Counted from the first letter of the stretch, positions 2,687 through 42,743 are shown. The stretch is DNA of 53,117 bases from a virus (IMGVR_UViG_3300030110_004955:1-53117), one strand, 5' to 3'. Made by a program: numbers and translations. Notes: generated by a model from the letters alone, not told the origin.

Positions 2687-3038
2687 GTTTGAGGGACTTG
2701 ATACACCTGAGTTTAAAGTCAAACCAAAATCAGAGGGGTTTTATCAGGCACCAAAGCCTGAGTTGTCGATCAAAAAACCTAAGGAAGATGAGTTTGATCT
2801 GATGAAGGACGTACCCGGTACACCAAAGAAGACTAGTTCGAAAGCCGATAAAAAGATCGATCGTTACGCGAAGTTTAAGAAGAACCAGCCGAAGGCCCAA
2901 GCGGTTGCGGGTGTCCTTGGTGGTATGGGTAAGAAAGACTCGACAAATGGTCAGCGTTACAAGCCCGCAAGTGATGGTGTTGATGCGGCTTTTGATAGAA
3001 TCATCGATACACTAACGATGCGTAGAAGTGCGAAGTAG
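2679..3038 (+). CDS. Hypothetical Lys-rich protein (119 aa)
   Basis: ATG at 2679 overlaps the end of the previous ORF (ATGAGTAA), with AAGGA upstream; a more likely start than the one in the track. Confidence 0.6.
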   Translation: MSKFEGLDTPEFKVKPKSEGFYQAPKPELSIKKPKEDEFDLMKDVPGTPKKTSSKADKKIDRYAKFKKNQPKAQAVAGVLGGMGKKDSTNGQRYKPASDGVDAAFDRIIDTLTMRRSAK

Positions 3039-4295: not shown

Positions 4296-7200
4296 GTGGC
4301 TAAGGAAGAGCAAGGTACCAAAATTGTTGAGGAAGAAACCCTTGCCGTCGATGCTGAGCAACCTGAAGTTAAACAGCCTGAGGTTACACAGTTTGATAAG
4401 GAAAAATTAGGTAAGCTGACGAAAGACTTGAAGATCGAGCGGCTGGGTCTGATCATTGCTGAGTACGCAGAAACAGAGCGTTCATACGACCCTAAAGCTG
4501 TTGAGAAGCGTAAAGCAGAAGAAGCGCCAACGTTTAACTACGAAGATGCTCTGAGCGAAGTCACAGATTTTACGGGGCTGACGCCGACAGAATACAAAGA
4601 AGCAGCAACGTATCAGAATATTCCACTCGACGACCTGTTTACGCGGGTGGCGGAAAAGGGTGAGCCGGTCAGTGATGTAGTTAAGTCTTTCAAACTTCAG
4701 AGAGAGCAGGCTGGCGAGACCAAAGAGAAGCGTGAGGTAAAGCAACGGGGAACAGACATTGCTTTGTCAGGACTTAAGCGCCTTCAAACAGGTAAGAAAA
4801 AGCTACCAAAGAAAGAGCGTGAGGCGGCACAACGGCGAATACTCTCACGCTTTGATCCTCGAGAACAACCACCGATAATCTTCGACGGCAACACGGAAGG
4901 TGAGGCCGAGGATGCGATTATCCGTGTCGGTCAACCTGGGTGGGATCAACTTGATAAGATGGGTGAGTTGATCATCAATGACAAAGTGGCGGAAGACCCT
5001 GAACGAGCCAAGCTTTGGCAACAACAGCTACAGAGTTTGGGTACTCCATCTTCCGGTAAAATGATTCGCGACGTCCTGGCGGACAGTAAGTTTCGAGACA
5101 TTATCGGGAACATCGCTACGTATGACCTCAACAAGATGTCCAAGAAAGAGGGTATCGGTCGAGGTCAGATCCGAGAGGACGGTGTTTCGTACGAAGATTT
5201 GAAAGACAAAGCAATGAAGAACGCTTTGTATGATGCAACACTTCTCCGTACACTGAACAAGTTTTATCTTCCGGCTTTCATTTCATACGACTTGATTGAC
5301 CCACTCAAGAAGATTCCAAACACAGAAAACGAAGACGACAAGAGTTGGTTTTCGAAAGCGTGGAACAATGCGAGTGAGGTTCGTGTAGAAGTTATTGGCT
5401 TAGACGCGAAAAACAAAGCACCGGTTTACCGTCTTGACTCACCTACATGGCACCTCTTTGAGTTGATGGATGCACCTCAAGCTGCCTTCACAGGTGCGGT
5501 AGAGAGACTCGCCAAAGGGCCTGAGGGTGAATCGTTTCTCGACGCTATCTCAGAAGGATCACTTGAAGGTATTAAAGACCGTAGGGATCTCATAAAAGCT
5601 GCGCTATCCACTGAGGCGGCTGAGTCTGACGGCCTTACTGCAGTTGCTTTGGGTATGCTTGGCTTGGGTGGTGCTATTGTTTTCCCCGATGCATTTATTG
5701 GTGCCGCTGCTGCCGCACGCATAACAAAGAAGTTGGGCACATCTGCCGCAGACGTGGCTCGACTTAGAAAGCTTGCCCCAGGTTTAACGGGCAGCTTGGG
5801 TGATGGTGCAGAGTCTTTGGCCAAAGCCGAAGAGATTCTGAGTGATGGTGTGGCTGATGCTATTCTTGCAGGTAACTACGATGAGGCTCTGCGTTTGCTT
5901 GATGAAGCACAGGAGTTTGCAAAGAAGTCTGATGCATCGATATCCGAGGCACGCGGATTAGATAGAAACGCAGCAACCGTTGTTGATGAGTTAGATACGG
6001 AAATTGCCCGTAAGCTGAGTAAAGAAACACCTGAAATGGCTGGTGGTGAAGGCAACCGATTGGCCTCAATCATACCTGGTTCATTTGGTTTCATTGAGCA
6101 GAATATCCATCAGGGTTTACGACGTAAACTTCTTCGTGGTGACATGGATGAGCAGACCGTCGGTTTCGGTGAATTACTCAGTATGAGTGAGTCGATCGAG
6201 CATCTAAAAGACTCTGTTCGTGTGTTGAAAGAGGGCAACATTAACGAACAGCTTTTGAGTGCTAATCGACAAGAAGCGTCTAGCTTTCTATCGAAAGTAC
6301 GAGACTTCATGCGTGAGATCAATGTCGGTACAGCTAATCCAGATTTGACTACAGATCAGCGTCAACTATCAATCGACCTTGTTCGTTACTTGGAGTCTGC
6401 TGAGTCGATTAAACTACTTCGTGATGATCCGAATGCTTGGAAACTTCGGGTAACGGAGTTGGCGCAGAAACTTCCGTTTGATCCTGAGAAGTTGACCGAT
6501 ACGAATATCTTTCTTTCTAAGCTAAACAAAGAAATGTCTACCACGGTGACTTCGATGAAGAAGACTCGTGCAGCATTGAAAACCAAGGTTACACCTGAGA
6601 TTGCGGCAAGTGCTACGGCAAAAGGCGTCAAAGCTATTCGCGGTCAGTTTGAGTCTCGTGCAGCGGCCATGGCGTTTACGCGTGAGAAAATAGCGGAAAA
6701 AGCAGGTCTGTCCGTTGATCCATTGATTGTTTCAATCACAGAGAAGCACAAAGCTGTTGGTCGCTCAGGTTTGTCTCCTGATGGATTGGCTTTTTTAGAT
6801 CAGCTTCAAGAAGCTGCACCGAATATTTCAGCCGATGAAGCGCTTAGAATTACGAAGAATGTAGACAACCAAGCAAAGAAGTGGGCGAAGCAGAACGAGC
6901 GTACTGTACAGGCTTTCTACGACGAGACTTTTGAGGCAATTGTTGGTGCGCCATCACCGAGACCTCGGCCCCGTGGTCTTGCTCCTGATGCACCGCCTAA
7001 GGCTCCGACACCTGAGGCGCCTACACCGAAAGATGTAGAGACACCGCCTACAGCGAAGGCACTTGACGAGTATCCGCCTGCGGGTCCAATGGAGGAAAAG
7101 CTACCTACAGGTCTTCGAGAAGCTTTGACGGGGCTTGATGAGTCTGTCTTTAAGCCTAAGGTAGCGGGTAAGGCTGCTCGTGGGGCGTTTGAGGGTCCTG

Positions 7201-10200
7201 TAGCTACGGCACCAAAACAGAAACCATTGCCAGATATTGAACCGTCTACACCTCGTGGTTTGTTTGTTGGTTGGTTTCAACGTAGCGAACCTGTGGGCAG
7301 TTTGTCCGCTGAAGATCTTTACAACCATCTACGTCAATTTGAGGGACCAGGTGAAGGCGCAAAGGTTGTTGAGTTTTTGGCGAACCATGCAGCGTTGCCT
7401 GCTACCAGAGCAATTGCACGACGCATCTTACCGACAATCAGAAGAAACGCTCCTTCGTTTAAGATTGTTGACGGTCGTGAAATTGATACGACTGGAATGA
7501 ATAACAGCTATGGTCAGTATTCGAGTATTTTAAACGAGGTACGAATTCGGGGTATTGCTGGTGCCTTGCGAACGGGCTTGGATGAAGAGACAATCCTGCA
7601 TGAGTTTATTCATGCTGCAACATCAATTTTTATTGATGCATCTCCTAATAACGCTACGATTAAAAACTTAGAGGATCTATCCGACGAGACGCTTACTGCT
7701 TTACGTAATTACCGAAACACACAAGATTTGACTGAAGATGTCGCAGTAAAAATCGACGCCATGTTAATGGGCTGGGACTATTTCGGTTCGACGAAAGAGT
7801 TTCTTGCTTGGAGTTTAAGTAGTTCGAGTTTTCAACGGATGCTCCAAACTTTAGAGATTGGACCAAAAACTACTTTGTGGAACAAGTTTACGCGTTTAAT
7901 CGCTAAGTTGTTTGGTATTACGGCAGAGGACGAGACCGGTGCTTTGGCTCAAGTATTGGTGGCAAACGATCGGCTGTTAACGGCGGCATCTAAGTTTGAT
8001 CCCCGCGTTGTTTCTGATGCTGAACCTATCGTGACTGTATCCGAAGGCGGCACAAAAGTTACATCACCGGTTTTAGTTACAATTTACAGGCGACAAATTA
8101 AAAAGTCTGATGAACGACCTAAGTTAAAAAAATATGATGAACCTTTGGGTGAAATACTTTTCCGCGAGAACAAAGTTTTTGGTTCAAGAGTCTTTCAGGT
8201 AGACTCTGTTGAGGTTCCAGCATCTCTGCGGCGTAAGGGGCTTGGAACAGATTTATATCTTAGGGCACTCAAGCACGCGCAGAATGAGGGTGTGGGCTTT
8301 GTTAGTGATTTAACGCCTACGGAAGATGCTGTTCGTGTCTACAACAAGTTACAGAATTTAGGGGTCAAGTTTCAGCGTAAACCTTTACCTGATGCACAAG
8401 GCGAATTGACCGATGTCTATTTTATTAGCTCGCGTAACTTGGCTAAATTAGACTTGGATAAAATTGCAATTGAACACGGAAAGAGATTTTCGCTTGATTA
8501 CCTTTATGCTCTCGTCAACGAGGGTTCTGTTAGTCGCTTTGCTGCCCGTGGTGATGACTTTGTAGCTAACCCTGTGGTTGTAGACTTCATGGAGGATGGC
8601 CGTGCCGTTATCCGTGCTTTGACGGAGACCGCAACGGCAGATGATTTCATGCTGGCAATCGGTCGGGTGACTCGTCGAAACTTTGATGACTCGGATATGA
8701 AGGCTTTGGTTACCTGGCTGGGAACCAAGGGCATTAAGGTTGGTCATCGTGGTTCAGTGCTCACAGCAGACGATGCTTCTGTCGTAGAAGCCGCTGAACA
8801 AGAATTTGCGAGGGCGTTCCTACATTACGTGAAGTCAGGTCAGGCTGATCAACCAGAAATTCAAGGGGCTTTGAGTAAGGCAAATGAGTGGCTTAAAGAT
8901 ACATATACCTCAATCACAAGTCGTAGTGCTGGCGGACCACTGCCAGGAACAGACCCCGGACTCACACGATCATTGGACAAGCTTTTGCGGACGCGCTCTG
9001 AACGGGTTGCGCTTCCGAATATCTTTAAGCTTACGAAAGATGCGATGCTGTCTACTGCGAAGAAAGAGGGTACGAAGTTTGATGTCTTGGACGAGATCTA
9101 CCGAGAGTTGTATCGCTTGGGCAATCCGGTATCAAAAGCAGATCTTGAGAAGCAATGGGCTGATGCGCTAAAAAGATACGATCCAAATAAGCCCGATGCC
9201 GCAGTACTGAAATTTCCCGTCGCGATTAAACTCGGCGGTGCTTTAGGTAAACCAAAAGATCAGTTTACTTTGACTGATTTGGCGAAGGCTCAGAGGCAGC
9301 TTGAGGATGCTCGGTTGTTTGAGATACAGCCGAAGAAAACTGTGCCTTTGCCTATTGGTGGTGCTGAGAAAGCAATCGAAGAGCGTTCAGCCGCAGAGTT
9401 AACTGACCAGGCGATGCTTAATAGACCATTGGGTCGGGTATTTCGCAACATATTCCTCGGTGGTGATGCGTACGCTGACATGCGCCATCTACCTCCTGCG
9501 ATTCGAGAATCGGTCAAAGCGGGTGAGCGGCTGGTTCAGCAAGCTATTGGTGACGCGATTACGCTTGTTGTCGAAGGTGACATCAATAATTTGATGCGGT
9601 ACCTGACGGGTACCAAGACTGTTCAGTTTGCCAAGGGTGGTCGGTCAGCGATGAGTGCTGGTCATGACTCAGTGACTTCTGTTGTGAAGAGTATGGAGAA
9701 GTACTTCAAAGCAATGGCGACCGAGGAAGTAGGGAAGATTCAAATAGAGATTCTTCAAACGTACGCGGCTCTTGTAAGGCAAAATAACTCAGCCTCAGAA
9801 GCTTTGAAAACAATCACCCAGATGAAAGTCGGGGGCGAGGATATCACCCAAAAGCAGATCATCGAAGCGTTTAATGCTGTGGTGAAGGGTGATAAATCAA
9901 ACCGGTTTATCAAAGAAGCGTTTGAGGCAGCGGGGTACAAGTCATCTGAGTTTTACCCTCAGTTTTTGACACAACCAAAAGGTGCTACTGAAGCCGGTGG
10001 GTTGCTCGAAGCGTTTATGTATTACGCAAACTTAGTCGAGCGTGTCGATCCTGCGGATAACAAAAGCAAACTGTACTCCACGATGATGTCTGATGCCGGT
10101 ATTGTTGACGTACCTCAAAACACATTTATTCGTTTGTATGATGAGATTTCGACGCTATTCCCTGAAGATAACAAAGTTGCGAACCGTGTAGCTATTCTGG

Positions 10201-12620
10201 TAGCAGGTCATGGTGTGGCTCATAAGGCCCGTCTTAACTGGGTTAAGCTTGGTATTGCTGCCGATGAAGAACTTGCAAGCGCCGTCAATATGTACCTGGT
10301 CGGTGAGAAAGTATCTGATGAGCAATTGGTCCAGGTCAAACGTTTCGTAGATCTTATGGGGTACAACCCCCGTATGGTTGACGTGTTCAGTTTGGACGGC
10401 GTCACAATGTATCTTCCAAACGCGGCACGCAACCGTCTTGCGATGGCTATGTCTCAGGCGAATGATCCAACCATCATAAAGTCACTTAACGGCGACCTAT
10501 TTGATGCGATGCATACTGTGATGGCGGCTGGTGAGGACGTGATCTCAAAAGGTACGAACACAACGACCAAGTTGAATATGGCGTTGATCTATCGGTACCT
10601 CAAAACACGTATGGTTCGTGGTCACTTTGTCTTGAAGTCTCGATACTTTTGGATGAATACATTCGATCACTTCAACCAAACAGCCCTTCGTGCGGGATAC
10701 GGAACAGCATTTGTCTCAACCACTCGAATGTTTACTCAGAATGTGTTGTCGAATCCGATAGGTCAAGCTGCTGTATTCGCTGCACGTCGAGCCGGTAAGG
10801 GTGAAGAAGTTGAGGCATTTCGACGCGTGCTGCAGTCCGGTGGTGATAAGGCGGCACAGTGGGCGAAGAAATTTAGCCGTGGTTCTAAGTGGCACATCAA
10901 TGTTAATGACGTAATTCGTGGCGGTGATGAGATTATTCTCTTGGGTGGTAAGCCCTATGTGATGAGCGATCTGCGTCAGATATTTCTGGAAGCAGGTGTC
11001 TTCGCCTCATTCGACACCAGTCAATTGGGTACGAAGATTGAGAATGTCGGAAACTTGTTTTTGATGGAGCAGCAGAAAAAAGGGAATTTGTCTCAAGCGG
11101 GCAAAGATATTCTTGGTGATCTCAAAGGCGCATCAGAAGATATTGCAGAAGCTTGGGCTGAGCGAGAGCGCGCAGGTCTTGCAATCACTTTGATTGAAGG
11201 CGGCATGGACCCCAAAACTGCGGCACGTATCGCAGTTGAAGCGCTCTATGACTACGCAGGCAGCATGTCTAAGGGCGATCGAAACTTCCTGGTCAACCTA
11301 TTCTTCCCTTTCTGGGCTTTCCAAAAGAACGCAAACCGCCAGATGTTTGACGTCTTATTCAGCCCCGAAGGCGCGTACAGGCTGGGTGTTATGCGTCGAG
11401 CCTATGATAAGGGTAGCGATGCTCTCAGTGAGCTTGTTTACGCGGCATCTGTTGATGAAAACGGAATCTATGTGGATGGACTGCCAGATGATTTGAGGCA
11501 AAGCTACTTTGCTTTGAAGAAAGAAATCTATGGTCGGTACGAAGTTGATGGTCGTATCCCACCAATCGTTCGAGAAGAATTACGTTTGTTTGTTTCGGGT
11601 TCAGTTGTTCGCGCATCTTTGGGTCAATTGCGACAAACAACAGAGCTTACAGAAGAATTTGTCGATATTGCTCGTGGCTTGAAAGACGAAGAGGGTAAAC
11701 CTTTGTTGGTGGATCGTCGTTCTCTGGCAGCATTTTATGTACCGAGAACAGATCGTTCCTCAATGCCTAATTACTTACACGATAGAATTTCTCTGAGGCT
11801 TCCGTACCTACCAGAGCGTGCAGTTGACGTGTCAATTGACCCCGAAATTCCTGGTGAGTTTAAACAAACGATGAAAACTTGGACGGATTTGTATCGACAA
11901 AATCGTCCAGATGCGCCGTACATGGGGCTGTTTTTACCTGACCCAACCTACAATGCTGCAATGAATCACTTTACGTATTTGGCTTCTACGATGCTGCTGG
12001 CAATAGGTGAGGTTGAAGAGTTGGGTGATGCCTGGTTTACGGATGAAGATGATGGATCGGATGCAATTAGTCCGATCACACCACTAAATGCTTTGTTGAA
12101 CACAGAAAGAACAATTGGTGTGTCTGATGCAATGGCGTCTTTAGGTATTGGTGGATCTCAAATACCGAGAAAGGTGCATCCTGCTTTTGCTTTTTTTGCT
12201 GATTACTCAGGATTAGATGTACTTGAATTAGACGAAAGAGATGACCCATATTCTTTGTTGATTGAGCGTAAAAAAGACATTGATGCGGGGAAAGATGTAG
12301 ATCCTTTGCCCCTTAAACGGCCTGGGGTAGAAACTAAACAAGATAAAGTCTATTACCTGATGCCCGGTGTCATGCAGTTGGCATTTAATAACAGTCCTTT
12401 TGGTGAGGTAAATGACATCTTGTTGAAGATGGAGAAGACGTCGCCTGAAAAAGCTGCGGGTATGCGGGGCAATCTTCAAGTTGCGATACGTACAGCGTTG
12501 GGTCTTGATATGCGTGACATTACTCGTGAAAGAACCGCGTCAGCCGCAAAATATCAAGCTGAAGAAGACAGTAGTCGTTTGGTTCAGAAAAAAGCTAAGC
12601 CAGGGCAGAGGTTAAAGTAG
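4296..12620 (+). CDS. Giant polyvalent/ejected virion protein with zincin metallopeptidase-like (HEFIH) and GNAT-like (RRKGLG) domains
   Basis: 2774 aa. ILHEFIHAAT at ~7593-7622; VEVPASLRRKGLGTDLYLRAL acetyl-CoA-binding motif around 8229-8246; C-terminal FFPFWAFQ-type segment typical of large phage internal proteins. Confidence 0.7.
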   Translation: MAKEEQGTKIVEEETLAVDAEQPEVKQPEVTQFDKEKLGKLTKDLKIERLGLIIAEYAETERSYDPKAVEKRKAEEAPTFNYEDALSEVTDFTGLTPTEYKEAATYQNIPLDDLFTRVAEKGEPVSDVVKSFKLQREQAGETKEKREVKQRGTDIALSGLKRLQTGKKKLPKKEREAAQRRILSRFDPREQPPIIFDGNTEGEAEDAIIRVGQPGWDQLDKMGELIINDKVAEDPERAKLWQQQLQSLGTPSSGKMIRDVLADSKFRDIIGNIATYDLNKMSKKEGIGRGQIREDGVSYEDLKDKAMKNALYDATLLRTLNKFYLPAFISYDLIDPLKKIPNTENEDDKSWFSKAWNNASEVRVEVIGLDAKNKAPVYRLDSPTWHLFELMDAPQAAFTGAVERLAKGPEGESFLDAISEGSLEGIKDRRDLIKAALSTEAAESDGLTAVALGMLGLGGAIVFPDAFIGAAAAARITKKLGTSAADVARLRKLAPGLTGSLGDGAESLAKAEEILSDGVADAILAGNYDEALRLLDEAQEFAKKSDASISEARGLDRNAATVVDELDTEIARKLSKETPEMAGGEGNRLASIIPGSFGFIEQNIHQGLRRKLLRGDMDEQTVGFGELLSMSESIEHLKDSVRVLKEGNINEQLLSANRQEASSFLSKVRDFMREINVGTANPDLTTDQRQLSIDLVRYLESAESIKLLRDDPNAWKLRVTELAQKLPFDPEKLTDTNIFLSKLNKEMSTTVTSMKKTRAALKTKVTPEIAASATAKGVKAIRGQFESRAAAMAFTREKIAEKAGLSVDPLIVSITEKHKAVGRSGLSPDGLAFLDQLQEAAPNISADEALRITKNVDNQAKKWAKQNERTVQAFYDETFEAIVGAPSPRPRPRGLAPDAPPKAPTPEAPTPKDVETPPTAKALDEYPPAGPMEEKLPTGLREALTGLDESVFKPKVAGKAARGAFEGPVATAPKQKPLPDIEPSTPRGLFVGWFQRSEPVGSLSAEDLYNHLRQFEGPGEGAKVVEFLANHAALPATRAIARRILPTIRRNAPSFKIVDGREIDTTGMNNSYGQYSSILNEVRIRGIAGALRTGLDEETILHEFIHAATSIFIDASPNNATIKNLEDLSDETLTALRNYRNTQDLTEDVAVKIDAMLMGWDYFGSTKEFLAWSLSSSSFQRMLQTLEIGPKTTLWNKFTRLIAKLFGITAEDETGALAQVLVANDRLLTAASKFDPRVVSDAEPIVTVSEGGTKVTSPVLVTIYRRQIKKSDERPKLKKYDEPLGEILFRENKVFGSRVFQVDSVEVPASLRRKGLGTDLYLRALKHAQNEGVGFVSDLTPTEDAVRVYNKLQNLGVKFQRKPLPDAQGELTDVYFISSRNLAKLDLDKIAIEHGKRFSLDYLYALVNEGSVSRFAARGDDFVANPVVVDFMEDGRAVIRALTETATADDFMLAIGRVTRRNFDDSDMKALVTWLGTKGIKVGHRGSVLTADDASVVEAAEQEFARAFLHYVKSGQADQPEIQGALSKANEWLKDTYTSITSRSAGGPLPGTDPGLTRSLDKLLRTRSERVALPNIFKLTKDAMLSTAKKEGTKFDVLDEIYRELYRLGNPVSKADLEKQWADALKRYDPNKPDAAVLKFPVAIKLGGALGKPKDQFTLTDLAKAQRQLEDARLFEIQPKKTVPLPIGGAEKAIEERSAAELTDQAMLNRPLGRVFRNIFLGGDAYADMRHLPPAIRESVKAGERLVQQAIGDAITLVVEGDINNLMRYLTGTKTVQFAKGGRSAMSAGHDSVTSVVKSMEKYFKAMATEEVGKIQIEILQTYAALVRQNNSASEALKTITQMKVGGEDITQKQIIEAFNAVVKGDKSNRFIKEAFEAAGYKSSEFYPQFLTQPKGATEAGGLLEAFMYYANLVERVDPADNKSKLYSTMMSDAGIVDVPQNTFIRLYDEISTLFPEDNKVANRVAILVAGHGVAHKARLNWVKLGIAADEELASAVNMYLVGEKVSDEQLVQVKRFVDLMGYNPRMVDVFSLDGVTMYLPNAARNRLAMAMSQANDPTIIKSLNGDLFDAMHTVMAAGEDVISKGTNTTTKLNMALIYRYLKTRMVRGHFVLKSRYFWMNTFDHFNQTALRAGYGTAFVSTTRMFTQNVLSNPIGQAAVFAARRAGKGEEVEAFRRVLQSGGDKAAQWAKKFSRGSKWHINVNDVIRGGDEIILLGGKPYVMSDLRQIFLEAGVFASFDTSQLGTKIENVGNLFLMEQQKKGNLSQAGKDILGDLKGASEDIAEAWAERERAGLAITLIEGGMDPKTAARIAVEALYDYAGSMSKGDRNFLVNLFFPFWAFQKNANRQMFDVLFSPEGAYRLGVMRRAYDKGSDALSELVYAASVDENGIYVDGLPDDLRQSYFALKKEIYGRYEVDGRIPPIVREELRLFVSGSVVRASLGQLRQTTELTEEFVDIARGLKDEEGKPLLVDRRSLAAFYVPRTDRSSMPNYLHDRISLRLPYLPERAVDVSIDPEIPGEFKQTMKTWTDLYRQNRPDAPYMGLFLPDPTYNAAMNHFTYLASTMLLAIGEVEELGDAWFTDEDDGSDAISPITPLNALLNTERTIGVSDAMASLGIGGSQIPRKVHPAFAFFADYSGLDVLELDERDDPYSLLIERKKDIDAGKDVDPLPLKRPGVETKQDKVYYLMPGVMQLAFNNSPFGEVNDILLKMEKTSPEKAAGMRGNLQVAIRTALGLDMRDITRERTASAAKYQAEEDSSRLVQKKAKPGQRLK

Positions 12621-31386: not shown

Positions 31387-31730
31387 CTCTGGATTGTTTT
31401 AAACGAACACTTCTGACCGGGCGAAAAGATCGTTCGGTTAGTTGCTGACCTTGACCCACCTGATGTTGAAGGCGTCGACTTAACAATGGCCATTGCTGCT
31501 TCGAAAGTACTGTCATCCGTAAAGCTAAGCTTGTATGCGCCAGCATTTGTTTCAAGCTCAAGGATACGATGCTTGGGTGCAGGAGCCTTCGGCGCCGGAG
31601 CAGACACTTTAGGTGCCGCAGCTTTCTTTGGTGCTGCAGCTTTCTTTGGTGCTGACTTGGTTGCCTTTTTTGCCGTAGTCTTTTTCTTTGCGGCAGGCTT
31701 CTTTACTGTTGGTTTCTTCGCGGTTGGCAT
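31365..31730 (-). CDS. Histone H1-like Lys/Ala/Pro-rich DNA-binding protein with small C-terminal domain
   Basis: AKKPTVKKPAAKKKTTAKKA..PKKAAA repeats; GGAGG RBS before the ATG at 31730; TGTTATACT extended -10 upstream. Confidence 0.6.
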   Translation of the reverse strand: MPTAKKPTVKKPAAKKKTTAKKATKSAPKKAAAPKKAAAPKVSAPAPKAPAPKHRILELETNAGAYKLSFTDDSTFEAAMAIVKSTPSTSGGSRSATNRTIFSPGQKCSFKTIQSYKVSEL

Positions 31731-37722: not shown

Positions 37723-38094
37723 CTATGGAATTGAGACGTTGGGGTTGTGGTGGTTTGTCGTGGCGTTGTACCGGGTGGTGAAGAGTGCGTAGGGCGCAGA
37801 GTTTACCGGGACAAGCGTTTCTGATTCGACGAATGTGGTGTGGTCGTATGGGTTGTATGTCACGCCACGGGAGATACCGGCGCGCAGGTCGTCAGCAACG
37901 TGGTAGACACGGTGACCGCGAGCAAACGCGTGGACATTCTTACGACGTTGATGGCGTACCCGAGCATTACCACCGGGTTGAACCACGAATTCAACATCCT
38001 CAAGGGCGATATAGGGTACGTGTTCAATGACCTTGCCTTTGTGCCGGACACTGAAACATTTTTTTCGAATGTTCCAATAGACGTCGACTTTCAT
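37723..38094 (-). CDS. Conserved phage hypothetical protein (VY.N..K.CFSV / RKNVHAF / YNPY family)
   Basis: Motifs recognisable from widespread phage early proteins; GGAGG RBS. Confidence 0.65.
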   Translation of the reverse strand: MKVDVYWNIRKKCFSVRHKGKVIEHVPYIALEDVEFVVQPGGNARVRHQRRKNVHAFARGHRVYHVADDLRAGISRGVTYNPYDHTTFVESETLVPVNSAPYALFTTRYNATTNHHNPNVSIP

Positions 38095-38273
38095 GATTGA
38101 CCTCCTTCGAGTTTATAGGTTTCCCAAACGATGTGGGCTTGTTCGAATAGGGCATCCAGCTCGTCGTCATCGATATCCATCTCAAGGCACAGAGCATCGC
38201 AATCGAGGTGGGCTTGGGTTGCGTTGATCTCACAGATGAATCGGGCAAACTGGATTAGATTATTGTGTCGCAT
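38091..38273 (-). CDS. Hypothetical protein
   Basis: 60 aa; ATGA overlap. Confidence 0.5.
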   Translation of the reverse strand: MRHNNLIQFARFICEINATQAHLDCDALCLEMDIDDDELDALFEQAHIVWETYKLEGGQS

Positions 38274-38425
38274 GGGTCATTCCTGCTTGTAGGGGAAGGC
38301 GATCCGTCATCACTCACCTTCCTGTCTGATGTTGGGAACCGGTATCAAATATCCCCACGGGTCCATCAACCATGCATATCCAATACAATCAATCCAATAT
38401 GTTTCATACTTGCGGTTTGGGTTCA

Positions 38426-38608
38426 TTACTCACCGCCGTTGGCGTCATCAGACTTGAACATGTTCAAGACTCCATGAGCGTTACACATGACGCGGTTCAA
38501 TGAGCCATCATCGTCGCCATCGTATAGGTTCGGGTCGGCCTCGAGGTAGTTGACCAGGAGTTGTAGAGCGTCGTACGCGCGTTGCAATTTGTAGATGTTG
38601 GTTTTCAT
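38426..38608 (-). CDS. Hypothetical protein
   Basis: MKTNIYKLQ start, TAATG-coupled. Confidence 0.5.
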   Translation of the reverse strand: MKTNIYKLQRAYDALQLLVNYLEADPNLYDGDDDGSLNRVMCNAHGVLNMFKSDDANGGE

Positions 38609-38970
38609 TACGCACCTTCCTGCATAGTCCAAGTGTATAGGCAGCCATTCGATCGATAGACGTCGTTACGCCAATCGGTCGCATACTCAGTGGTCGGGGG
38701 ATCGGCCTGCTGTATCAGAGAGACGGGACAGTCCCAATAGCAAGGTCCCATCGACTCATCGATAGCTTTGTATCCCCAGTCGCCTTGGTATGAAGACAAC
38801 CTGAATAGGCATACAAACGAGGGGCCTTGTTTGGGTTGGATGAGCATCCATAGGTGACGACCGAAGTTAGTAGCTTTCCGGTCAATGATGGTGAATATGT
38901 CGTTGCTGTACATTTTGACCAGCGTATCGACGACATCTTTGCGGCTGTAGAATCCTGTTGTTGTCCCCAT
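38608..38970 (-). CDS. DUF6927-like protein
   Basis: WGYKAIDESMGPCYWDCP...A..WR motif. Confidence 0.55.
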   Translation of the reverse strand: MGTTTGFYSRKDVVDTLVKMYSNDIFTIIDRKATNFGRHLWMLIQPKQGPSFVCLFRLSSYQGDWGYKAIDESMGPCYWDCPVSLIQQADPPTTEYATDWRNDVYRSNGCLYTWTMQEGA

Positions 38971-39206
38971 TAATCACCGCCTTCATACGCGAGCCAACTA
39001 TGCACAAGGTTGTGTGCGTCGGGGTCAGTGTTGGGGGTCTCCTTAAAACAGTTGCGCAAGGTCCATCCAAGTCGCTTTGGAGAAGAGACGACTGATTGCC
39101 GGACATCGTCGAGCAGTGCATCCTTTGCGCGCTGTATAGCTTCGGGTGTGTTGGGTACTGTGTAGGTGTTGATCACCAGGGATACGTTTACGTGTTCGGG
39201 TTTCAT
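38970..39206 (-). CDS. Hypothetical protein
   Basis: 78 aa; coupled on both sides. Confidence 0.5.
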   Translation of the reverse strand: MKPEHVNVSLVINTYTVPNTPEAIQRAKDALLDDVRQSVVSSPKRLGWTLRNCFKETPNTDPDAHNLVHSWLAYEGGD

Positions 39207-39463
39207 CGGTTTCGCTCCATGCGTTCGAGTTTCCAGTCTTCATAGCGTCGGTCATCCTCGGCATCTTTGAGACCTTGGACGTGGTCGGCTGCACCCTGTT
39301 CGGTGACCTCTTCTTCTTCGTGGTCTTCGAGTTCGATGGGTTGTCCAGTCTCGCAGTTAATTGCCTTTAGGATTTCCATTTCGTCGTAGTCGGGGTAGAA
39401 GACGCAGTCGACTTCGATCTCTATGGTGCGGGTTATGTGGTAGGTGAAGTGTTGCTTACGCAT
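39203..39463 (-). CDS. Hypothetical acidic protein
   Basis: 86 aa; AGGAG RBS immediately after the repeat array. Confidence 0.6.
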   Translation of the reverse strand: MRKQHFTYHITRTIEIEVDCVFYPDYDEMEILKAINCETGQPIELEDHEEEEVTEQGAADHVQGLKDAEDDRRYEDWKLERMERNR

Positions 39464-39476
39464 GAAGACTCCTAAG

Positions 39477-39617
39477 AATGCGTGGCATGGAAAGTACTGG
39501 GCTGGTTAGGGCAGGATAGGAATGTGCTGCGTCGGCGCGGCGTGGGTAAAAATGCGTGGTCTGGTGAGAGGGGGGTGGGGCCAGAAACGGATAGGCGCGA
39601 CCTGGAATGATGAGGCA
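39477..39617 (-). repeat. Pentamer-periodic array, two units (12 and 13 pentamers), candidate guide RNAs
   Basis: Plus strand: AATGCG tgg ca tgg aa agt ac tgg gc tgg tt agg gc agg at agg aa tgt gc tgc gt cgg cg cgg cg tgg gt, then AAAAATGCG tgg tc tgg tg aga... The central G is invariant every 5 nt, with one 1-nt slip in a G run. Confidence 0.85.
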
Positions 39618-39648
39618 CCTGTTCGCCGTGCCTCCCTGCGCGATATGA

Positions 39649-40269
39649 TTACTTGGCGGCGGCGCTGTTCATACGGTACTTGCCGTTTGAGTCAGCGACT
39701 GAGACGTCGAAGCGACCCCATCCCCAGCCACGGCTGGCACCGATACCGGTGTACATACCCGCGTCGGTGATGTACTTGATGATGGCGTCTTCATCCATTT
39801 CGTCCTGCATGTAGGTGATGGTGATCTCGGCGGACCAGTCATAGAATACAGCACGGGTTTTTGGAATCATCTTACCGTTGACCTTGACCAAAGATTCGTA
39901 GTGGAAACGGTCGTCTTTGAGTAGGCCTTTTAATGTTTTGGGTCCGTCGTAATCGAGGACAGCGTCACGCATAACGCTACAATAACGTTTACATGCGGCA
40001 CCACCTTTACTTAGTTTGGCGCCTTCGATGAGAGCAGCGCGAATGTTTTCGGCGGGGATTACTACCTTGCCTTTGTCGTTGAGGTAGAGGCACGCTTCGA
40101 ATTCGACAAGCGCCATCTGGTCAAGGATTGCATCAACGTCGGCGGTCTTGCCTTTCTTTTTTGTGTTGAGTTCCTTGAGACGGCGGGCGTATTTATTGCG
40201 TGGGTTCGCGGTCTGGTTGTTTTGCAGCATGAGGCGGTCGCCTTGCAGCAGGAAAGTTACGTCGGGCAT
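39649..40269 (-). CDS. Stand-alone RAMP/Cas7-like protein (Vipr-like)
   Basis: N-terminal beta strand then L(M)LQN; VIPAENIRAALIEGA resembles IPGSSLKGALR; C-terminal Gly-rich loop GIGASRGWGWGRFDV; 206 aa; no other cas genes nearby. Confidence 0.75.
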   Translation of the reverse strand: MPDVTFLLQGDRLMLQNNQTANPRNKYARRLKELNTKKKGKTADVDAILDQMALVEFEACLYLNDKGKVVIPAENIRAALIEGAKLSKGGAACKRYCSVMRDAVLDYDGPKTLKGLLKDDRFHYESLVKVNGKMIPKTRAVFYDWSAEITITYMQDEMDEDAIIKYITDAGMYTGIGASRGWGWGRFDVSVADSNGKYRMNSAAAK

Positions 40270-40805
40270 TAGTTGTCCTGGGTTGGGGGGGTGTTGGTCG
40301 GTTGGACAGGAGCGTCCTGGTAGCGTTGAAGACGGTTGGCTTCTACTCGGGCACGTCGTACGTGACTTGCAAGTGCAGACATACGAGTCTGGGCGGCTTG
40401 TTTGCGGCGGCGATCTTCATCAGACAGGTCGCTGTTGCGCGTTAGGCGCAGGATCTTGCGTCCACGACCAATGGTTTTGCTGATGTCTTTGAGCACGTTG
40501 GTGTCAACGAAGGCAACGTTTTGGTCGGGCTCAAGAAGTTTGAAGCCTTCGCCCCATAATGTTTTCGGCCAACGGCCAGTGCGTTCGAGTACGATCATCC
40601 GAAACTCAGCGCGGAGAGTGAGCAGGGTGAGGTTCCATTGCTTGTGTAGATCGATGGGATCGGTGTTGGTAGGAGGGGCAAGTCCAGACCATTCAATCAA
40701 TTGTTCGGTCGTTATTAGATTGAATTCAGGGCTGGCTACGAGGATATCGTCGAGACGATCGGCTGCATGTTCGGCAGCTTTGAAGACTACGGGTGTAGGG
40801 TACAT
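40269..40805 (-). CDS. Partner protein of the RAMP-like gene (178 aa, helical, possible winged helix)
   Basis: GGAG RBS before the ATG at 40805; TAATG-coupled to the RAMP-like gene. The track's longer N-terminus is translated repeat array. Confidence 0.7.
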   Translation of the reverse strand: MYPTPVVFKAAEHAADRLDDILVASPEFNLITTEQLIEWSGLAPPTNTDPIDLHKQWNLTLLTLRAEFRMIVLERTGRWPKTLWGEGFKLLEPDQNVAFVDTNVLKDISKTIGRGRKILRLTRNSDLSDEDRRRKQAAQTRMSALASHVRRARVEANRLQRYQDAPVQPTNTPPTQDN

Positions 40806-40822
40806 GGTCACTCCGGGTGGGG

Positions 40823-40988
40823 AAGATGCGCGGTTTGTAAGGGCACGGGTTGGTATGACGCGGAATGGAAAGTCGCGTACTGGTGAGAACAAATAAATAT
40901 GCATGGTTTGGTGAGGCGCGCTGTGGTGCGGGCAGGAAAGGTCGGGTCGGACTGGGCCTGCTGCGTCGAGGACGGCTCTGGTTTGTGT
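40823..40988 (-). repeat. Pentamer-periodic array, two units (17 and 12 pentamers), candidate guide RNAs
   Basis: Plus strand: AAGATGCG cgg tt tgt aa ggg ca cgg gt tgg ta tga cg cgg aa tgg aa agt cg cgt ac tgg tg aga ac; then AAATAAATATGCA followed by 17 in-phase NGN-NN pentamers (40904-40988). Confidence 0.85.
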
Positions 40989-41071
40989 CAGGTTTTTTGG
41001 TGGTGACTGACGAACCACAAAGGGGGGGATTTTGTTTCCGTTCACCGCAGATCCCGTACTGCGCGAAAGTG

Positions 41072-41260
41072 TTACCTGGCCTCCTGGCCGCAGATGGCAC
41101 AGGTCCAGATGTCATCGGCGTCTGGAGCGTGTAGTACCTGGCAGTCAGATTTTTTGGATAGTTCGATGAAGTTTCCGTGATGATCTATGACCCAGTCCTC
41201 AGTGACATGGGCCGTGGCTATGAAGCGATCATGTGTGGGATCGCTGGGGCATACTTTCAT
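41072..41260 (-). CDS. Small Zn-ribbon-like protein
   Basis: MKVCP...WTCAICG; ATGA-coupled. Confidence 0.55.
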   Translation of the reverse strand: MKVCPSDPTHDRFIATAHVTEDWVIDHHGNFIELSKKSDCQVLHAPDADDIWTCAICGQEAR

Positions 41261-42186
41261 TTGGCCTCGCCAACGTCTACGTACTCACGAATACTCAGGT
41301 CGAACGCAGGGATGTGCGCGTCGGTTACTGAACCACCAGCAAGGGCGATAGCCTTTGTCGCATGGTCAATGCCAGCGAAGTGACGGAAAGCTTGGTTGGG
41401 TGGGGTGCGTTGACCGGCGGCAGTGACAGCCTGGTATGCAGAGAACAAGTCATTGGTGCCGTGTTCACTGTGAAGATCACCGTTGTGGCAATCGTTCCAG
41501 TAACGGAAGGCAGCGGTAAACGAGTTGGGCTTGATCAAACCACGACTAAATAAGACACCCATGTATGCACCAAACAAATCGTTCTGTACTGGTATGTCCT
41601 TCCACCCTTCAATCATGCGAATACGTTCGAGGACTGGGGTGACTGCTGTGTCAGTAATGTCGTCCAACATATTACCGAGAGTGGAGAATACGTTGGTAGT
41701 ATGCTTGGCACTGACCATGTGTTCGCCAGAGAAACAACCGTTGGCACATACGAACGGAGCGCTACCAATAGCTATCTGGTTGGAGATAGTCTTGTCGTAG
41801 CTGGACCGTAGGGCAACGGTGATGGCCTGACCAGTGAGGCCGGAACCGAAACCAATCATGCCAAAGAGTTGGCTACCCTTTTTATTCAGGGCATAGGTTT
41901 CGAATAGGGGTTCAGCGTTGAGGACATTGGCCATTGCATCACGGGCACCGTCAATGAGGGACGCGTATGGTACAGGTTGGTAGCTGGCATTGCCTGAACG
42001 TGGATGCAATTCAGGCTCGGGCACAGGTACTTCGCACACGCTACGGTAGTCGGTACGATAGGCTTCGGGTGCACCGATGGTGCATATCTGTTGGCGTTTT
42101 AGTTGTGGGGGAGGAGCGACGGGAGCACGATTGATGCTTGTATTCAGACGCTCTACGGAGAGTGGTACGCAACTATGTTCTTGCAT
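41257..42186 (-). CDS. DUF932-like protein
   Basis: LRSSYDKT....IG...FVCANG...KHT, plus a C-terminal LFSAYQAVT motif. Confidence 0.65.
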   Translation of the reverse strand: MQEHSCVPLSVERLNTSINRAPVAPPPQLKRQQICTIGAPEAYRTDYRSVCEVPVPEPELHPRSGNASYQPVPYASLIDGARDAMANVLNAEPLFETYALNKKGSQLFGMIGFGSGLTGQAITVALRSSYDKTISNQIAIGSAPFVCANGCFSGEHMVSAKHTTNVFSTLGNMLDDITDTAVTPVLERIRMIEGWKDIPVQNDLFGAYMGVLFSRGLIKPNSFTAAFRYWNDCHNGDLHSEHGTNDLFSAYQAVTAAGQRTPPNQAFRHFAGIDHATKAIALAGGSVTDAHIPAFDLSIREYVDVGEAK

Positions 42187-42198
42187 TGGTATGTAGTC

Positions 42199-42483
42199 CT
42201 ATGAAGTACGGGGTTCTCGGGGTGGTAGCCAAAGCGCATCGTCGTCGAGGCAGGGAACCTGGAGACGCTCGGATTGGCCAGATGCTGGGTGGTACCGATG
42301 CCGAAACAAATGGTACCAATGGTGTTGAACAGGATTGGTGTATGGGTGAGATCCCATGTATTGCCAACGTTCAAAGGTTGTGACGGGGTGCTTGGCTGTG
42401 TGCGGTATTGGTGTACTAAACACAACAGCCCAGGCACGTTCCCATTCATCGCTATCTTTTTTCAGGCATTGGAAATCGGCCAT
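42199..42483 (-). CDS. Hypothetical protein
   Basis: 94 aa; WQYMGS...HLFRHRYHP motif; tiled in the operon. Confidence 0.55.
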   Translation of the reverse strand: MADFQCLKKDSDEWERAWAVVFSTPIPHTAKHPVTTFERWQYMGSHPYTNPVQHHWYHLFRHRYHPASGQSERLQVPCLDDDALWLPPREPRTS

Positions 42484-42743
42484 GCTTTATCAGTTCCTTC
42501 TTTGCGTGGGTTACGCGGGAGGTCCTGAAGCAATAGATTCAAGTGCTGTTCAGGACTAAGTGGTAGCAGTCCATCGTATACAGCCAGGGACAATACAGCA
42601 GTTTGTTCCAACATAGGTTGTTGGTTTTTGCTGAAGTGAGTCCCGCCCTTCTTGATTACGGTTGCGGTGGGGGATGTCATTTGATTGAGGTAGTCAACGT
42701 AACGCTGACGGTGGGTACGAGTATCAGGTTTTCTTTTTGGCAT
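42462..42743 (-). CDS. Hypothetical protein
   Basis: 93 aa; AGGAGG RBS. Confidence 0.5.
   Translation of the reverse strand: MPKRKPDTRTHRQRYVDYLNQMTSPTATVIKKGGTHFSKNQQPMLEQTAVLSLAVYDGLLPLSPEQHLNLLLQDLPRNPRKEGTDKAWPISNA

What the first reader, a model, noticed from the sequence alone, without database searches (positions are those of the whole stretch)
39477..39634. Downstream array (units C and D) with decodable dinucleotide strings
Unit D has 13 perfectly phased triplets (39483-39545); its sense-strand NN string is AC CG CG AC GC TT AT GC AA GC GT TT TG. Unit C has 12 triplets (39557-39615) with one extra base in a G run near 39570-39582, either a slip mutation or an assembly error. Both end in CCACGCATT(C/T)TT. 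A constant scaffold with non-repeating variable positions is not what microsatellite slippage produces, so the variable positions probably carry information. If every third target base is skipped, recognition could ignore codon wobble positions (inference).
Basis: partly seen in the sequence, partly recalled or inferred. Interest (0 to 1): 0.85.

Follow-up and report, generated by a model that had tools for sequence, protein, structure and literature searches.

The report
Phage VIPR guide arrays, cytosine scaffold
These five-base repeats are guide-RNA genes of a VIPR system, a CRISPR-like phage weapon first described in 2026, and here they seem to be built on a cytosine scaffold instead of the published guanine one.

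Summary
Units D (13 pentamers) and C (12, with one 6-base unit) are phase-locked 5-nt repeats: three constrained bases, then two free ones. A second pair (A, B) lies 1.2 kb away.

The two arrays flank a two-gene cassette on the minus strand. ORF 39649-40269 is a Vipr protein (E 1.6e-13 to the solved SUSP1 Vipr; phrog_4652). ORF 40269-40805 is a vap1-type accessory gene (phrog_5926). This is therefore a VIPR system (bioRxiv 10.64898/2026.04.26.720920). In that system the two free bases of each unit form a gapped guide that pairs with DNA and skips every third target base.

What differs is the scaffold. On the vipr strand it reads C-C-D/NN, not GGY/NN, and H-G-G/NN on the other strand. The SUSP1 residues that hold the two guanines (H17, D177, W178) are replaced in all 10 relatives of this clade. 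The gene order is vap then vipr.

I favour guides made from the vipr strand (about 0.7), but no RNA data exist. No target was found in 131 kb of local sequence, and no database-wide target scan was run.

Non-GGY VIPR arrays are already in print (10.64898/2026.10.21.760802). This scan has also noted VIPR loci with non-GGY scaffolds on other DNA.

The parts
39481..39545 (-). Unit D repeat tract: 13 pentamers (C-C-D then NN), a predicted vrRNA guide region
   Evidence: homologous units in L009 and L011
39474..39482 (-). Unit D short conserved 3' tail; it abuts the Shine-Dalgarno site (39469-39473) and the ATG (39461-39463) of the next ORF
39555..39615 (-). Unit C repeat tract: 12 units, one of them 6 nt long (extra base in the C run near 39571-39580)
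   Evidence: the extra base is shared with L010 and absent in L011
39548..39556 (-). Unit C short conserved 3' tail
39612..39634 (-). 7-bp hairpin between the vipr stop codon and unit C. It is conserved in L008-L011 and L015, and in the VIPR-less relative L004
39649..40269 (-). vipr gene (206 aa, P0001), a RAMP protein with a glycine-rich loop
40269..40805 (-). vap1-type accessory gene (178 aa, P0002)
40829..40888 (-). Unit A repeat tract (12 pentamers). Its tail runs into the Shine-Dalgarno site of vap
40902..40986 (-). Unit B repeat tract (17 pentamers)
   Evidence: identical in L010
40987..41011 (-). Hairpin in front of array A/B, from the same family of hairpins that precedes arrays (and a tRNA-Leu) in relatives
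39203..39463 (-). Downstream ORF (86 aa, no family hit). It is context only

Best explanation
Units C and D, and units A and B upstream, are vrRNA genes of a type-II-like VIPR system carried by an uncultured tailed phage.

Proposed mechanism:
1. The arrays are transcribed with the minus-strand early operon and cut into RNAs of about 65-95 nt.
2. Each RNA is a tract of 11-17 pentamers followed by a short U-rich tail.
3. One Vipr protomer (ORF 39649-40269) binds each pentamer, hides the three scaffold bases and presents the two free bases.
4. The concatenated dinucleotides pair with a DNA strand while one target base is skipped per unit. The filament sits on the DNA of a competing phage, satellite or prophage and silences it. 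The vap1-type protein assists.

Shown here: the repeat architecture, the Vipr and vap1 homology, whole-unit gain and loss between strains, and the invariance of scaffold position 2.

Taken from the papers for the GGY systems: filament formation, the 1-nt skip and silencing.

Inferred, at about 0.7: the guide is the vipr-strand RNA, whose scaffold is C-C-D (mostly CCA) instead of G-G-Y. On this reading the clade's Vipr has changed base specificity.
For: 1. Vipr homology. P0001 matches PDB 36pp_D 'SUSP1 Vipr protein' at E 1.6e-13 over residues 9-193. It matches phrog_4652 at E 1.1e-33. That family also takes the Viprs of wV8, Medea1 and MakoManhole at E 1e-96 to 4e-66. The AlphaFold model (pLDDT 76) finds Csm3/Cas7-type RAMPs: 11 chains at E<=1e-3, with low TM of about 0.4.

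2. vap1 homology. P0002 matches phrog_5926 at E 1.1e-7. That is the family of the gene next to vipr in wV8, Medea1 and MakoManhole. Pairwise BLASTP gives 6e-6 and 1e-5.

3. Array architecture. Tracts have 9-17 phase-locked pentamers. Two positions have near-uniform base use and position 2 is fixed.

4. Relatives. Loci L002, L007, L008, L012, L016 and L020-L022 all have arrays on the same scaffold, with unrelated NN strings, flanking vap-vipr. Strains 90-95% identical to the window differ by whole units. L010 lacks unit D. L009 and L011 carry an extra unit. Relatives L003 and L004 lack both the cassette and the arrays.

5. Strand.
- In 81 of 81 other Vipr loci examined, a GG-context array lies on the vipr strand.
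- The 10 loci with C-phased arrays on the vipr strand are exactly the 10 whose Vipr lacks H17 and has A/G-S in place of D177-W178. R138 is kept. The contact residues come from section 5 of 10.64898/2026.04.26.720927.
- Every tract has its conserved short element on its 3' side in the vipr direction.
- There is no room for a promoter between the arrays and the next start codon, so the C-tract RNA must be made whenever vap and vipr are expressed. It would be fully complementary to any antisense guide.
- In L002 a tRNA-Leu on the same strand starts directly after the last unit.
Against: - There is no transcript evidence for either strand.
- No target was found. In one search, 27 guides derived from the window and relatives were tested against 130,728 bases on both strands under skip rules 0, 1 and 2. 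One of the 27 beat its 8 shuffles, by a single match, which is no more than chance predicts.
- The tail is only about 9-12 nt with no predicted fold, whereas the published tails are about 40 nt with a pseudoknot or hairpin.
- The scaffold fails the published GGY definition on both strands.
- The plus-strand reading (first G fixed, second G about 70%) resembles the G(100)G(73) pattern of Medea1-type arrays. A guide on the other strand with GG retained is therefore not excluded.
- The 10 C-type loci form one clade, so the link between residues and scaffold is a single evolutionary event, not ten.
- In the SUSP1 structure the guanines bind in the syn conformation, which is unusual for pyrimidines.
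- Fold-search TM scores are weak.
Confidence: 0.85

Rival explanations
1. This is the same VIPR system, but the guides are transcribed from the plus strand, antisense to vipr. They would read H-G-G/NN, which falls in the published 'NNNGG'-type relaxed consensus. Vipr would still grip guanines. The A-rich header would be a 5' handle and the hairpin at 39612-39634 a 3' tail.
For: - Paper 720920 (Methods) lists alternative NNNGG, YNNNG and NNNNG repeats, so GG with a lost Y is already known.
- The plus-strand profile (fixed G, then G at about 70%) resembles Medea1-type arrays, which show G100 then G73.
- In Listonella phage phiHSIC, three hairpin elements alternate with three tracts. Each tract has a structured 3' element only if it is read antisense to vipr.
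- R138, one of the two G2 contacts, is conserved.
Against: - Three of the four guanine-contacting residues are replaced in all 10 loci of the clade. They are kept in 66 of the other 81 loci, and 80 of those 81 keep D/E or N at position 177.
- All 81 other loci have their arrays on the vipr strand.
- The tails would differ between units of one array: an A-rich header for one unit, a hairpin for another.
- No sigma-70-like promoter was found on the plus strand inside the downstream ORFs.
- In L002 such a promoter would have to lie inside a tRNA gene.
- The obligatory sense transcript would pair with the guide along its full length.
Confidence: 0.22
2. The tracts are mainly cis-acting Vipr-binding leaders. 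A Vipr filament forming on the 5' untranslated region, which ends at the Shine-Dalgarno site, would control translation of vap-vipr and of the next gene. This resembles TRAP on the trp leader. Trans-acting guides would not be the main role.
For: - Both arrays end 0-15 nt before a Shine-Dalgarno site.
- The tails are short and no separate promoter or terminator was detected.
- The spacing of one protein subunit per 5 nt is the geometry of TRAP sites. This comparison is recalled knowledge, not a call.
Against: - The NN positions and the number of units turn over between close strains, which a pure operator would not need.
- In L002 and L013 the array precedes a tRNA, not a coding gene.
- Homologous systems are proven trans-acting DNA binders.
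- The two roles are not mutually exclusive.
Confidence: 0.08
3. The repeats are not functional: a slippage microsatellite, a Rho-utilisation C-rich stretch, or G-quadruplex/i-motif DNA with no link to the neighbouring genes.
For: The minus strand is C-rich and G-poor (33 C against 11 G in unit D). The plus strand has GG every 5 nt.
Against: - The units are not copies of one another, so this is not slippage.
- Phase is held over 13-17 units with one invariant position. That position shows 0 changes in 144 compared sites.
- The third base of the plus-strand triplet is often not G, so many GG runs are broken.
- Arrays occur only where vap-vipr occurs: they are present in L002, L007, L008, L016 and L020-22 and absent in L003 and L004.
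Confidence: 0.02

Closest known systems
Type II VIPR of Escherichia phage SUSP1 / wV8 (Vipr + vap1 + four vrRNAs). Papers: bioRxiv 10.64898/2026.04.26.720920 (Results and three Methods sections read) and 10.64898/2026.04.26.720927 (sections 5 and 6 read)
   Same: - Homologous Vipr (E 1.6e-13) and homologous vap1 (phrog_5926).
- Arrays on both sides of the two genes.
- 5-nt units with three scaffold and two free bases, and 11-17 units per RNA.
- The tract is followed by a conserved element.
- Carried by a phage.
   Different: - The scaffold is C-C-D on the vipr strand instead of G-G-Y.
- H17, D177 and W178 are replaced, and the G-loop is one residue longer.
- The gene order is vap then vipr.
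- The tail is about 10 nt with no pseudoknot.
- The arrays are embedded in an operon and run up to the next Shine-Dalgarno site.
- The target is unknown.
Pseudomonas phage Medea1 and Gordonia phage MakoManhole VIPR loci. These are the best phage hits to P0001, at 36% and 31% identity
   Same: Same Vipr and vap families. The arrays lie on the vipr strand.
   Different: - They use GGY/NN with D/E-aromatic G-loops and H17.
- Their 3' tails are structured (a hairpin in Medea1, a tRNA-like T-arm in MakoManhole).
- Their gene order is vipr then vap.
Non-canonical VIPR arrays predicted from period-5 entropy. Paper: bioRxiv 10.64898/2026.10.21.760802 (passages and Methods 4.22 read). It reports 21 clusters with motifs such as GAC/NN, CAC/NN, WGT/NN and TGH/NN
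   Same: Vipr-like fold next to 5-nt repeats whose fixed trinucleotide is not GGY.
   Different: The text I read does not name a CCD/NN (or HGG/NN) motif. The full list is in its Fig. S10, which I could not see. That work gives no contact-residue analysis and no strand argument. WGT/NN and TGH/NN could be opposite-strand readings of arrays like those of L008 and phiHSIC; this is my inference.
Class 1 CRISPR Cas7/Csm3 backbone on crRNA
   Same: RAMP fold. One protomer binds per fixed step of guide RNA, with bases flipped out at each step.
   Different: The step is 6 nt with one flipped base and a contiguous spacer. These systems have CRISPR repeats and cas operons. None of that is present here: Rfam found 0 hits, and no cas gene turned up among the ORFs scanned around the arrays.
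TRAP (trp RNA-binding attenuation protein) sites. Considered from recalled knowledge before the Vipr hit
   Same: Triplets separated by 2-3 free bases, about 11 units, one subunit per 5 nt.
   Different: TRAP triplets are GAG/UAG. There is no TRAP homologue here, and the neighbouring protein is a RAMP.

Membership tests
VIPR system | A Vipr protein (minimal RAMP with RRM core, G-loop and thumb) is encoded next to the repeats | tested here: met
   - phmmer E 1.6e-13 to PDB 36pp_D, the SUSP1 Vipr.
- phrog_4652 at E 1.1e-33, shared with known Viprs.
- Glycine-rich loop present.
- The model hits Csm3/Cas7 RAMPs at E 2e-4 to 1e-3, with TM of only about 0.4.
VIPR system | Tandem 5-nt repeats with three constrained and two hypervariable positions, about 9-16 per RNA | tested here: met
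   The units have 13, 12, 12 and 17 pentamers. Positions 4 and 5 have near-uniform base use. The NN strings are unrelated between L002, L007, L016 and the window.
VIPR system | Scaffold trinucleotide GGY (YNNGG) on the guide strand | tested here: not met
   The vipr strand reads C(about 70%)-C(100%)-D (A about 50%, C about 10%). The other strand reads H-G-G. Relaxed or alternative scaffolds are in print, so this departs from the canonical definition but not from the wider family.
VIPR system | Invariable structured 3' tail after the tract | tested here: inconclusive
   Each tract in the window, L002, L009-L011 and L016 is followed by a conserved 9-12-nt element. In L007 and L012 the element is about 15-18 nt, and the last unit before a gene lacks it. 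No fold stands out: the MFE is no different from shuffles.
VIPR system | Accessory vap gene in the same operon | tested here: met
   P0002 falls in phrog_5926, the family of the vipr neighbours in wV8, Medea1 and MakoManhole. BLASTP gives 6e-6 and 1e-5. The gene order is reversed.
VIPR system | Guanine-contacting residues of SUSP1 Vipr (H17, D177, R138, W178) | tested here: not met
   H17 is replaced by Q, D or C (N by phmmer). D177 is replaced by A or G. W178 is replaced by S. R138 is kept. This holds in 10 of 10 loci of the clade. It fits a change of scaffold.
VIPR system | vrRNAs are expressed and bound by Vipr | not testable with these tools
   No RNA run was listed for 39150-41300.
VIPR system | Natural DNA targets match the NN string under the 1-nt skip rule | tested here: inconclusive
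   Only 130,728 local bases were searched, and no enrichment over shuffles was seen. No scan of a public collection was made.
CRISPR array | Direct repeats of 25-40 nt alternating with spacers, with cas genes nearby | tested here: not met
   The period is 5 nt. Rfam found 0 hits. Tandem Repeats Finder shows no such repeats.

The most novel reading that the evidence does not exclude
The guides of this phage clade are read from the vipr strand and use a nearly guanine-free C-C-D scaffold. Vipr would have been re-specified from guanine to cytosine recognition by replacing the three G-contacting residues (H17, D177 and W178 of SUSP1 Vipr). That would make a natural orthogonal VIPR scaffold. Its guides would be cut out of an operon transcript, in one relative directly in front of a tRNA, without the structured tail of the published systems.
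Probability: 0.6. Interest if true: 0.6.

Novelty: new variant of a known kind. Interest (0 to 1): 0.42.

Why it matters
VIPR is a months-old discovery, and all of its biochemistry rests on GGY scaffolds. This is a clade in which the scaffold letters and the three guanine-contacting residues change together. That gives a concrete, testable pair of protein pocket and RNA base. It could show how Vipr reads its scaffold. It could also supply a second scaffold that does not cross-talk with GGY for programmable silencing.

The close strains in which whole units are gained, lost or swapped (L009, L010, L011 against the window) show how guide repertoires turn over in nature.

The case also makes the strand question for non-canonical arrays explicit. 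That question affects how the motifs listed in the October 2026 survey should be read.

If the plus-strand reading is right instead, this is simply another relaxed-consensus member of the family.

Tried and rejected
1. Ideas held before the Vipr hit and dropped once the neighbouring gene proved to be a Vipr:
- a TRAP-like ring-protein site;
- two-tetrad G-quadruplex or i-motif DNA;
- a Rho-utilisation site;
- a CsrA sponge;
- antisense sRNAs with -10-like headers. L007 headers have no -10-like sequence.

2. Searches that found nothing:
- Rfam at gathering threshold over the whole window: 0 hits.
- tRNA scan: none in the window.
- blastn of 38000-42500 against phage records: no match.
- Single-protein scan of viral contigs with Vipr: nothing.
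- Scan of genome contigs with the clade alignment: none.

3. The Medea1 locus is not syntenic.

4. The promoter/terminator scan of 39100-41400 gave nothing above shuffles and nothing at the arrays.

5. RNA evidence: no RNA holder was listed for 39150-41300.

6. Target search:
- A local gapped-match test used 27 guides, skip rules 0, 1 and 2, both strands, 130,728 bases and 8 order-shuffles each. It showed no enrichment. One guide, from L007, reached 16 of 20 against a shuffle maximum of 15.
- A wider scan of public collections with the gapped strings was not made.

It was not repeated.

8. The GGTTCG motif of the hairpin family is not enriched in the window: 24 found against 27.8 expected.

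9. An apparent 69-unit C-phased 'array' in L026 turned out to be a 15-nt tandem repeat. The real L026 array is GGC/NN next to vipr.

10. Twelve canonical loci had C-phased runs in a CC context. On inspection they were ordinary sequence, not arrays.

11. Arguments I dropped or count as weak:
- Scaffold 'conservation hierarchy'. Medea1-type arrays fix the first G while SUSP1-type arrays fix the second G and the T. This argument therefore does not decide the strand.
- MFE comparison. The sense tracts are less structured than the antisense ones, but canonical guides are also G-rich, so this is weak evidence.

Full report
WHAT IS IN THE SEQUENCE

The window is the whole 53,117-bp contig. It is a tailed-phage genome. 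Replication genes lie on the plus strand: helicase, DNA polymerase, primase/helicase and an SbcC-like protein. A block of small early-type genes lies on the minus strand from about 34 to 47 kb, including SSB and a DUF932 protein.

The finding lies in the 185-nt gap between two minus-strand ORFs, 39649-40269 and 39203-39463.
- On the plus strand, 39483-39545 holds 13 triplets exactly 5 nt apart, and the middle base is G in all 13.
- Read on the minus strand, the gene strand, each unit is C-C-D followed by two free bases.
- Unit C (39555-39615) has 12 units, one of them 6 nt long.
- Each tract ends, in the gene direction, in the same 12-nt element, whose core occurs exactly twice in the window.
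- The last tail abuts the Shine-Dalgarno site and start codon of the next ORF.
- A 7-bp hairpin (39612-39634) sits between the stop codon of the upstream ORF and unit C.
- A second pair of tracts, A (12 pentamers) and B (17), lies at 40829-40986 in the next gap upstream. It is also preceded by a hairpin and also runs into a Shine-Dalgarno site.

IS IT MORE THAN CHANCE?

- The 60-nt window at 39481 has the highest lag-5 autocorrelation of the contig. The window at 40904 ties for second.
- Phased GG counts of 9 of 12 exceed all 50 Markov simulations, whose maximum was 7.
- Runs of at least 9 phased C occur four times, all on the minus strand and all at these four units. Forty simulations gave longest runs of 7-10.
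- The extra base in unit C is shared with an independent contig (L010) and absent from another (L011). It is a real indel.

WHAT IT IS

The ORF between the two arrays, P0001 (206 aa), has a glycine-rich loop typical of RAMP proteins.
- Pfam and NCBIfam gave only sub-threshold RAMP, Cas6 and Csm4 hits, mostly to the L002 homologue P0003. P0001 itself got only a Csm4 hit at E 0.09.
- A sequence search of the PDB returned one clear hit: 36pp_D, 'SUSP1 Vipr protein', at E 1.6e-13 over nearly the full length.
- That hit led to three preprints on VIPR systems.
- Paper 720920 (Results read): Vipr is a minimal RAMP. vrRNAs consist of 9-16 YNNGG units, that is GGY alternating with hypervariable NN, followed by an invariable tail. 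The NN dinucleotides pair with double-stranded DNA while one target base is skipped per unit. The skipped bases fall mostly on codon wobble positions. Loci usually hold vipr, a vap gene and flanking arrays. Natural targets are satellites and prophages.
- P0001 belongs to phrog_4652, together with the Viprs of wV8 (SUSP1 clade), Medea1 and MakoManhole.
- The neighbouring 178-aa P0002 belongs to phrog_5926, together with the gene that follows vipr in those three phages.
- An AlphaFold model of P0001 (pLDDT 76) finds Csm3/Cas7-type RAMPs as its best PDB folds, at E 2e-4 to 1e-3 but with TM of only about 0.4. The copy of the fold library predates the Vipr entry.

The locus is therefore array, vap1-like gene, vipr, hairpin, array. 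It is a type-II-like VIPR system.

RELATIVES

- Protein-guided scans found the same cassette, with the same kind of arrays, in L002, L007, L008, L012, L016 and L020-L022.
- The scaffold is kept, but the NN strings, unit numbers (1 to 6 per array) and tails differ.
- Phages with 78-84% identical DUF932 neighbours (L003, L004) lack the cassette and the arrays.
- Contigs 90-95% identical to the window differ by whole units. L010 has unit C only. L009 has a different first unit, an extra 18-unit tract and unit D. L011 has C, the extra tract and D.
- Within 11 pairs of homologous units, substitutions at positions 1-5 were 20/143, 0/144, 10/143, 17/143 and 28/142. The pairs are not independent.
- Position 2 never changes. 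Position 3 changes half as often as the guide positions. Position 1 is as free as the guide positions.

WHAT IS DIFFERENT

In wV8, Medea1 and MakoManhole the arrays read GGY/NN on the vipr strand. Here the vipr strand reads C (about 70%), C (100%), D (A about 50%, C about 10%), N, N. The other strand reads H-G-G-N-N. Neither strand is GGY/NN. The array is the complement, not the reverse complement, of the canonical unit.

Section 5 of paper 720927 names the SUSP1 contacts:
- G1 is held by H17 and D177.
- G2 is held by R138 and W178.
- Y3 is held by a pocket of the next protomer.

I extracted and aligned Viprs from 91 loci. I left out L003 and L004 (no vipr). I also left out L006, L013, L015 and L023, which are the same contigs as, or duplicates of, loci already counted. 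L009-L011 were left out as near-identical to the window. Results:
- Ten loci lack H17 and have A/G-S in place of D177-W178, with a one-residue longer loop. These are the window, L002, L007, L008, L012, L014, L016 and L020-L022.
- Those ten are exactly the loci whose vipr strand carries C-phased arrays. Best runs have 11-45 hits, against 0-9 for G.
- The other 81 loci all carry a GG-context array on the vipr strand, with 9-26 hits.
- Twelve of those 81 also had CC-context C-runs. I inspected them and they are ordinary sequence.
- R138 is kept in 90 of the 91 loci.

WHICH STRAND IS THE GUIDE?

A target search cannot tell, because a 1-nt-skip pattern is its own kind under reverse complement. I favour the vipr strand at about 0.7, for these reasons:
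- Arrays are co-oriented with vipr in every other locus examined.
- The guanine contacts are lost precisely in this clade. If guanines were still read, that loss would have no explanation.
- Each tract has its conserved element on the 3' side only in this direction.
- There is no room for a promoter between the arrays and the next start codon. The C-tract RNA is therefore made whenever vap and vipr are expressed, and it would fully pair with any antisense guide.
- In L002 and L013 the last unit runs directly into a tRNA-Leu gene on the same strand.

Points against this reading:
- There are no RNA data.
- The plus-strand profile (fixed G, then G at about 70%) resembles Medea1-type arrays.
- Paper 720920 lists an 'NNNGG' alternative.
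- phiHSIC, a non-canonical GCA/NN locus, looks better organised when read antisense.
- The ten loci are one clade, so the correlation is a single event.
- Syn-bound pyrimidines would be unusual.

TARGETS

I derived 27 guides inside a script from the stored loci. I searched the window and 13 loci (130,728 bases, both strands) under skip rules 0, 1 and 2, with 8 order-shuffles per guide.
- No guide stood out. One exceeded its shuffles by a single match, which is no more than chance predicts.
- This agrees with the absence of self-targeting reported in the paper. It says nothing about real targets.
- No scan of public collections with the gapped strings was made.

NOVELTY

- VIPR itself is known (April 2026).
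- A later preprint, 10.64898/2026.10.21.760802 (passages and one Methods section read), reports 21 clusters of Vipr-associated period-5 arrays with non-GGY cores. Examples are GAC, CAC, WGT and TGH.
- In the text I could read, no CCD/NN or HGG/NN core is named.
- The figures and supplements that list all motifs were not visible to me.
- Earlier notes of this scan describe VIPR loci with non-GGY scaffolds on other DNA. These are unchecked AI notes. They agree that such variants recur, and they raise the same strand question.

I therefore file this as a new variant of a known kind. Its value lies in four things: the paired change of scaffold and contact residues, the reversed gene order, the tail-less operon-embedded arrays, and the strain-level unit turnover.

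Noticed in passing
window 4296-12620 (+): A 2774-aa ORF with no PHROG family at E<=1e-5. It is the largest gene of the contig and its function is unknown.
   Followed up: partly
L002 3912-3998; L003 6977-7062: Relatives carry a tRNA-Leu (anticodon TAA). In L002 it starts directly after the last vrRNA unit. In L003, which has no VIPR, it starts directly after the conserved hairpin. The window has no tRNA. Relative to L003, the cassette plus arrays looks like an insertion between the hairpin and the tRNA.
   Followed up: partly
window 40987-41011 and 39612-39634; L002 2402-2432; L003 6916-6946; L007 3634-3658; L016 about 3008-3036: A family of hairpins precedes every array, and in L003 the tRNA. 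The stems show compensatory changes between loci. L016 has one U-G pair that is possible only in the gene-strand RNA. It could be a processing site, a 5' protective structure or a phage promoter or terminator. The GGTTCG part is not enriched in the window.
   Followed up: partly
L018 (Listonella phage phiHSIC) 2097-2360: Three tracts of G-C-A/NN pentamers alternate with three hairpin elements, between vipr (ORF22) and ORF20. The annotated minus-strand ORF21 overlaps them and is probably not a gene. The Vipr there has N for H17 and A for R138 but keeps D-F in the loop.
   Followed up: partly
L017 (Gordonia phage MakoManhole) 2690-2740 and 2810-2860: The tails of the GGY-type vrRNAs look like tRNA mini-helices: an acceptor-like stem plus a T-arm with a GGTTCGA-type loop. 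This suggests processing by tRNA enzymes.
   Followed up: no
L026 205-555: A 15-nt tandem repeat of about 23 copies lies upstream of a canonical VIPR locus. It mimics a C-phased pentamer array in automatic scans.
   Followed up: partly
window 41072-41260 (-): A 62-aa ORF lies between the DUF932 gene and array A/B. It has no family hit. L008 has a similar small ORF, while L002 and L010 lack it.
   Followed up: no
window 3122-3189, 31607-31654: Tandem repeats with periods of 21 and 18 nt lie inside ORFs. They were not examined.
   Followed up: no
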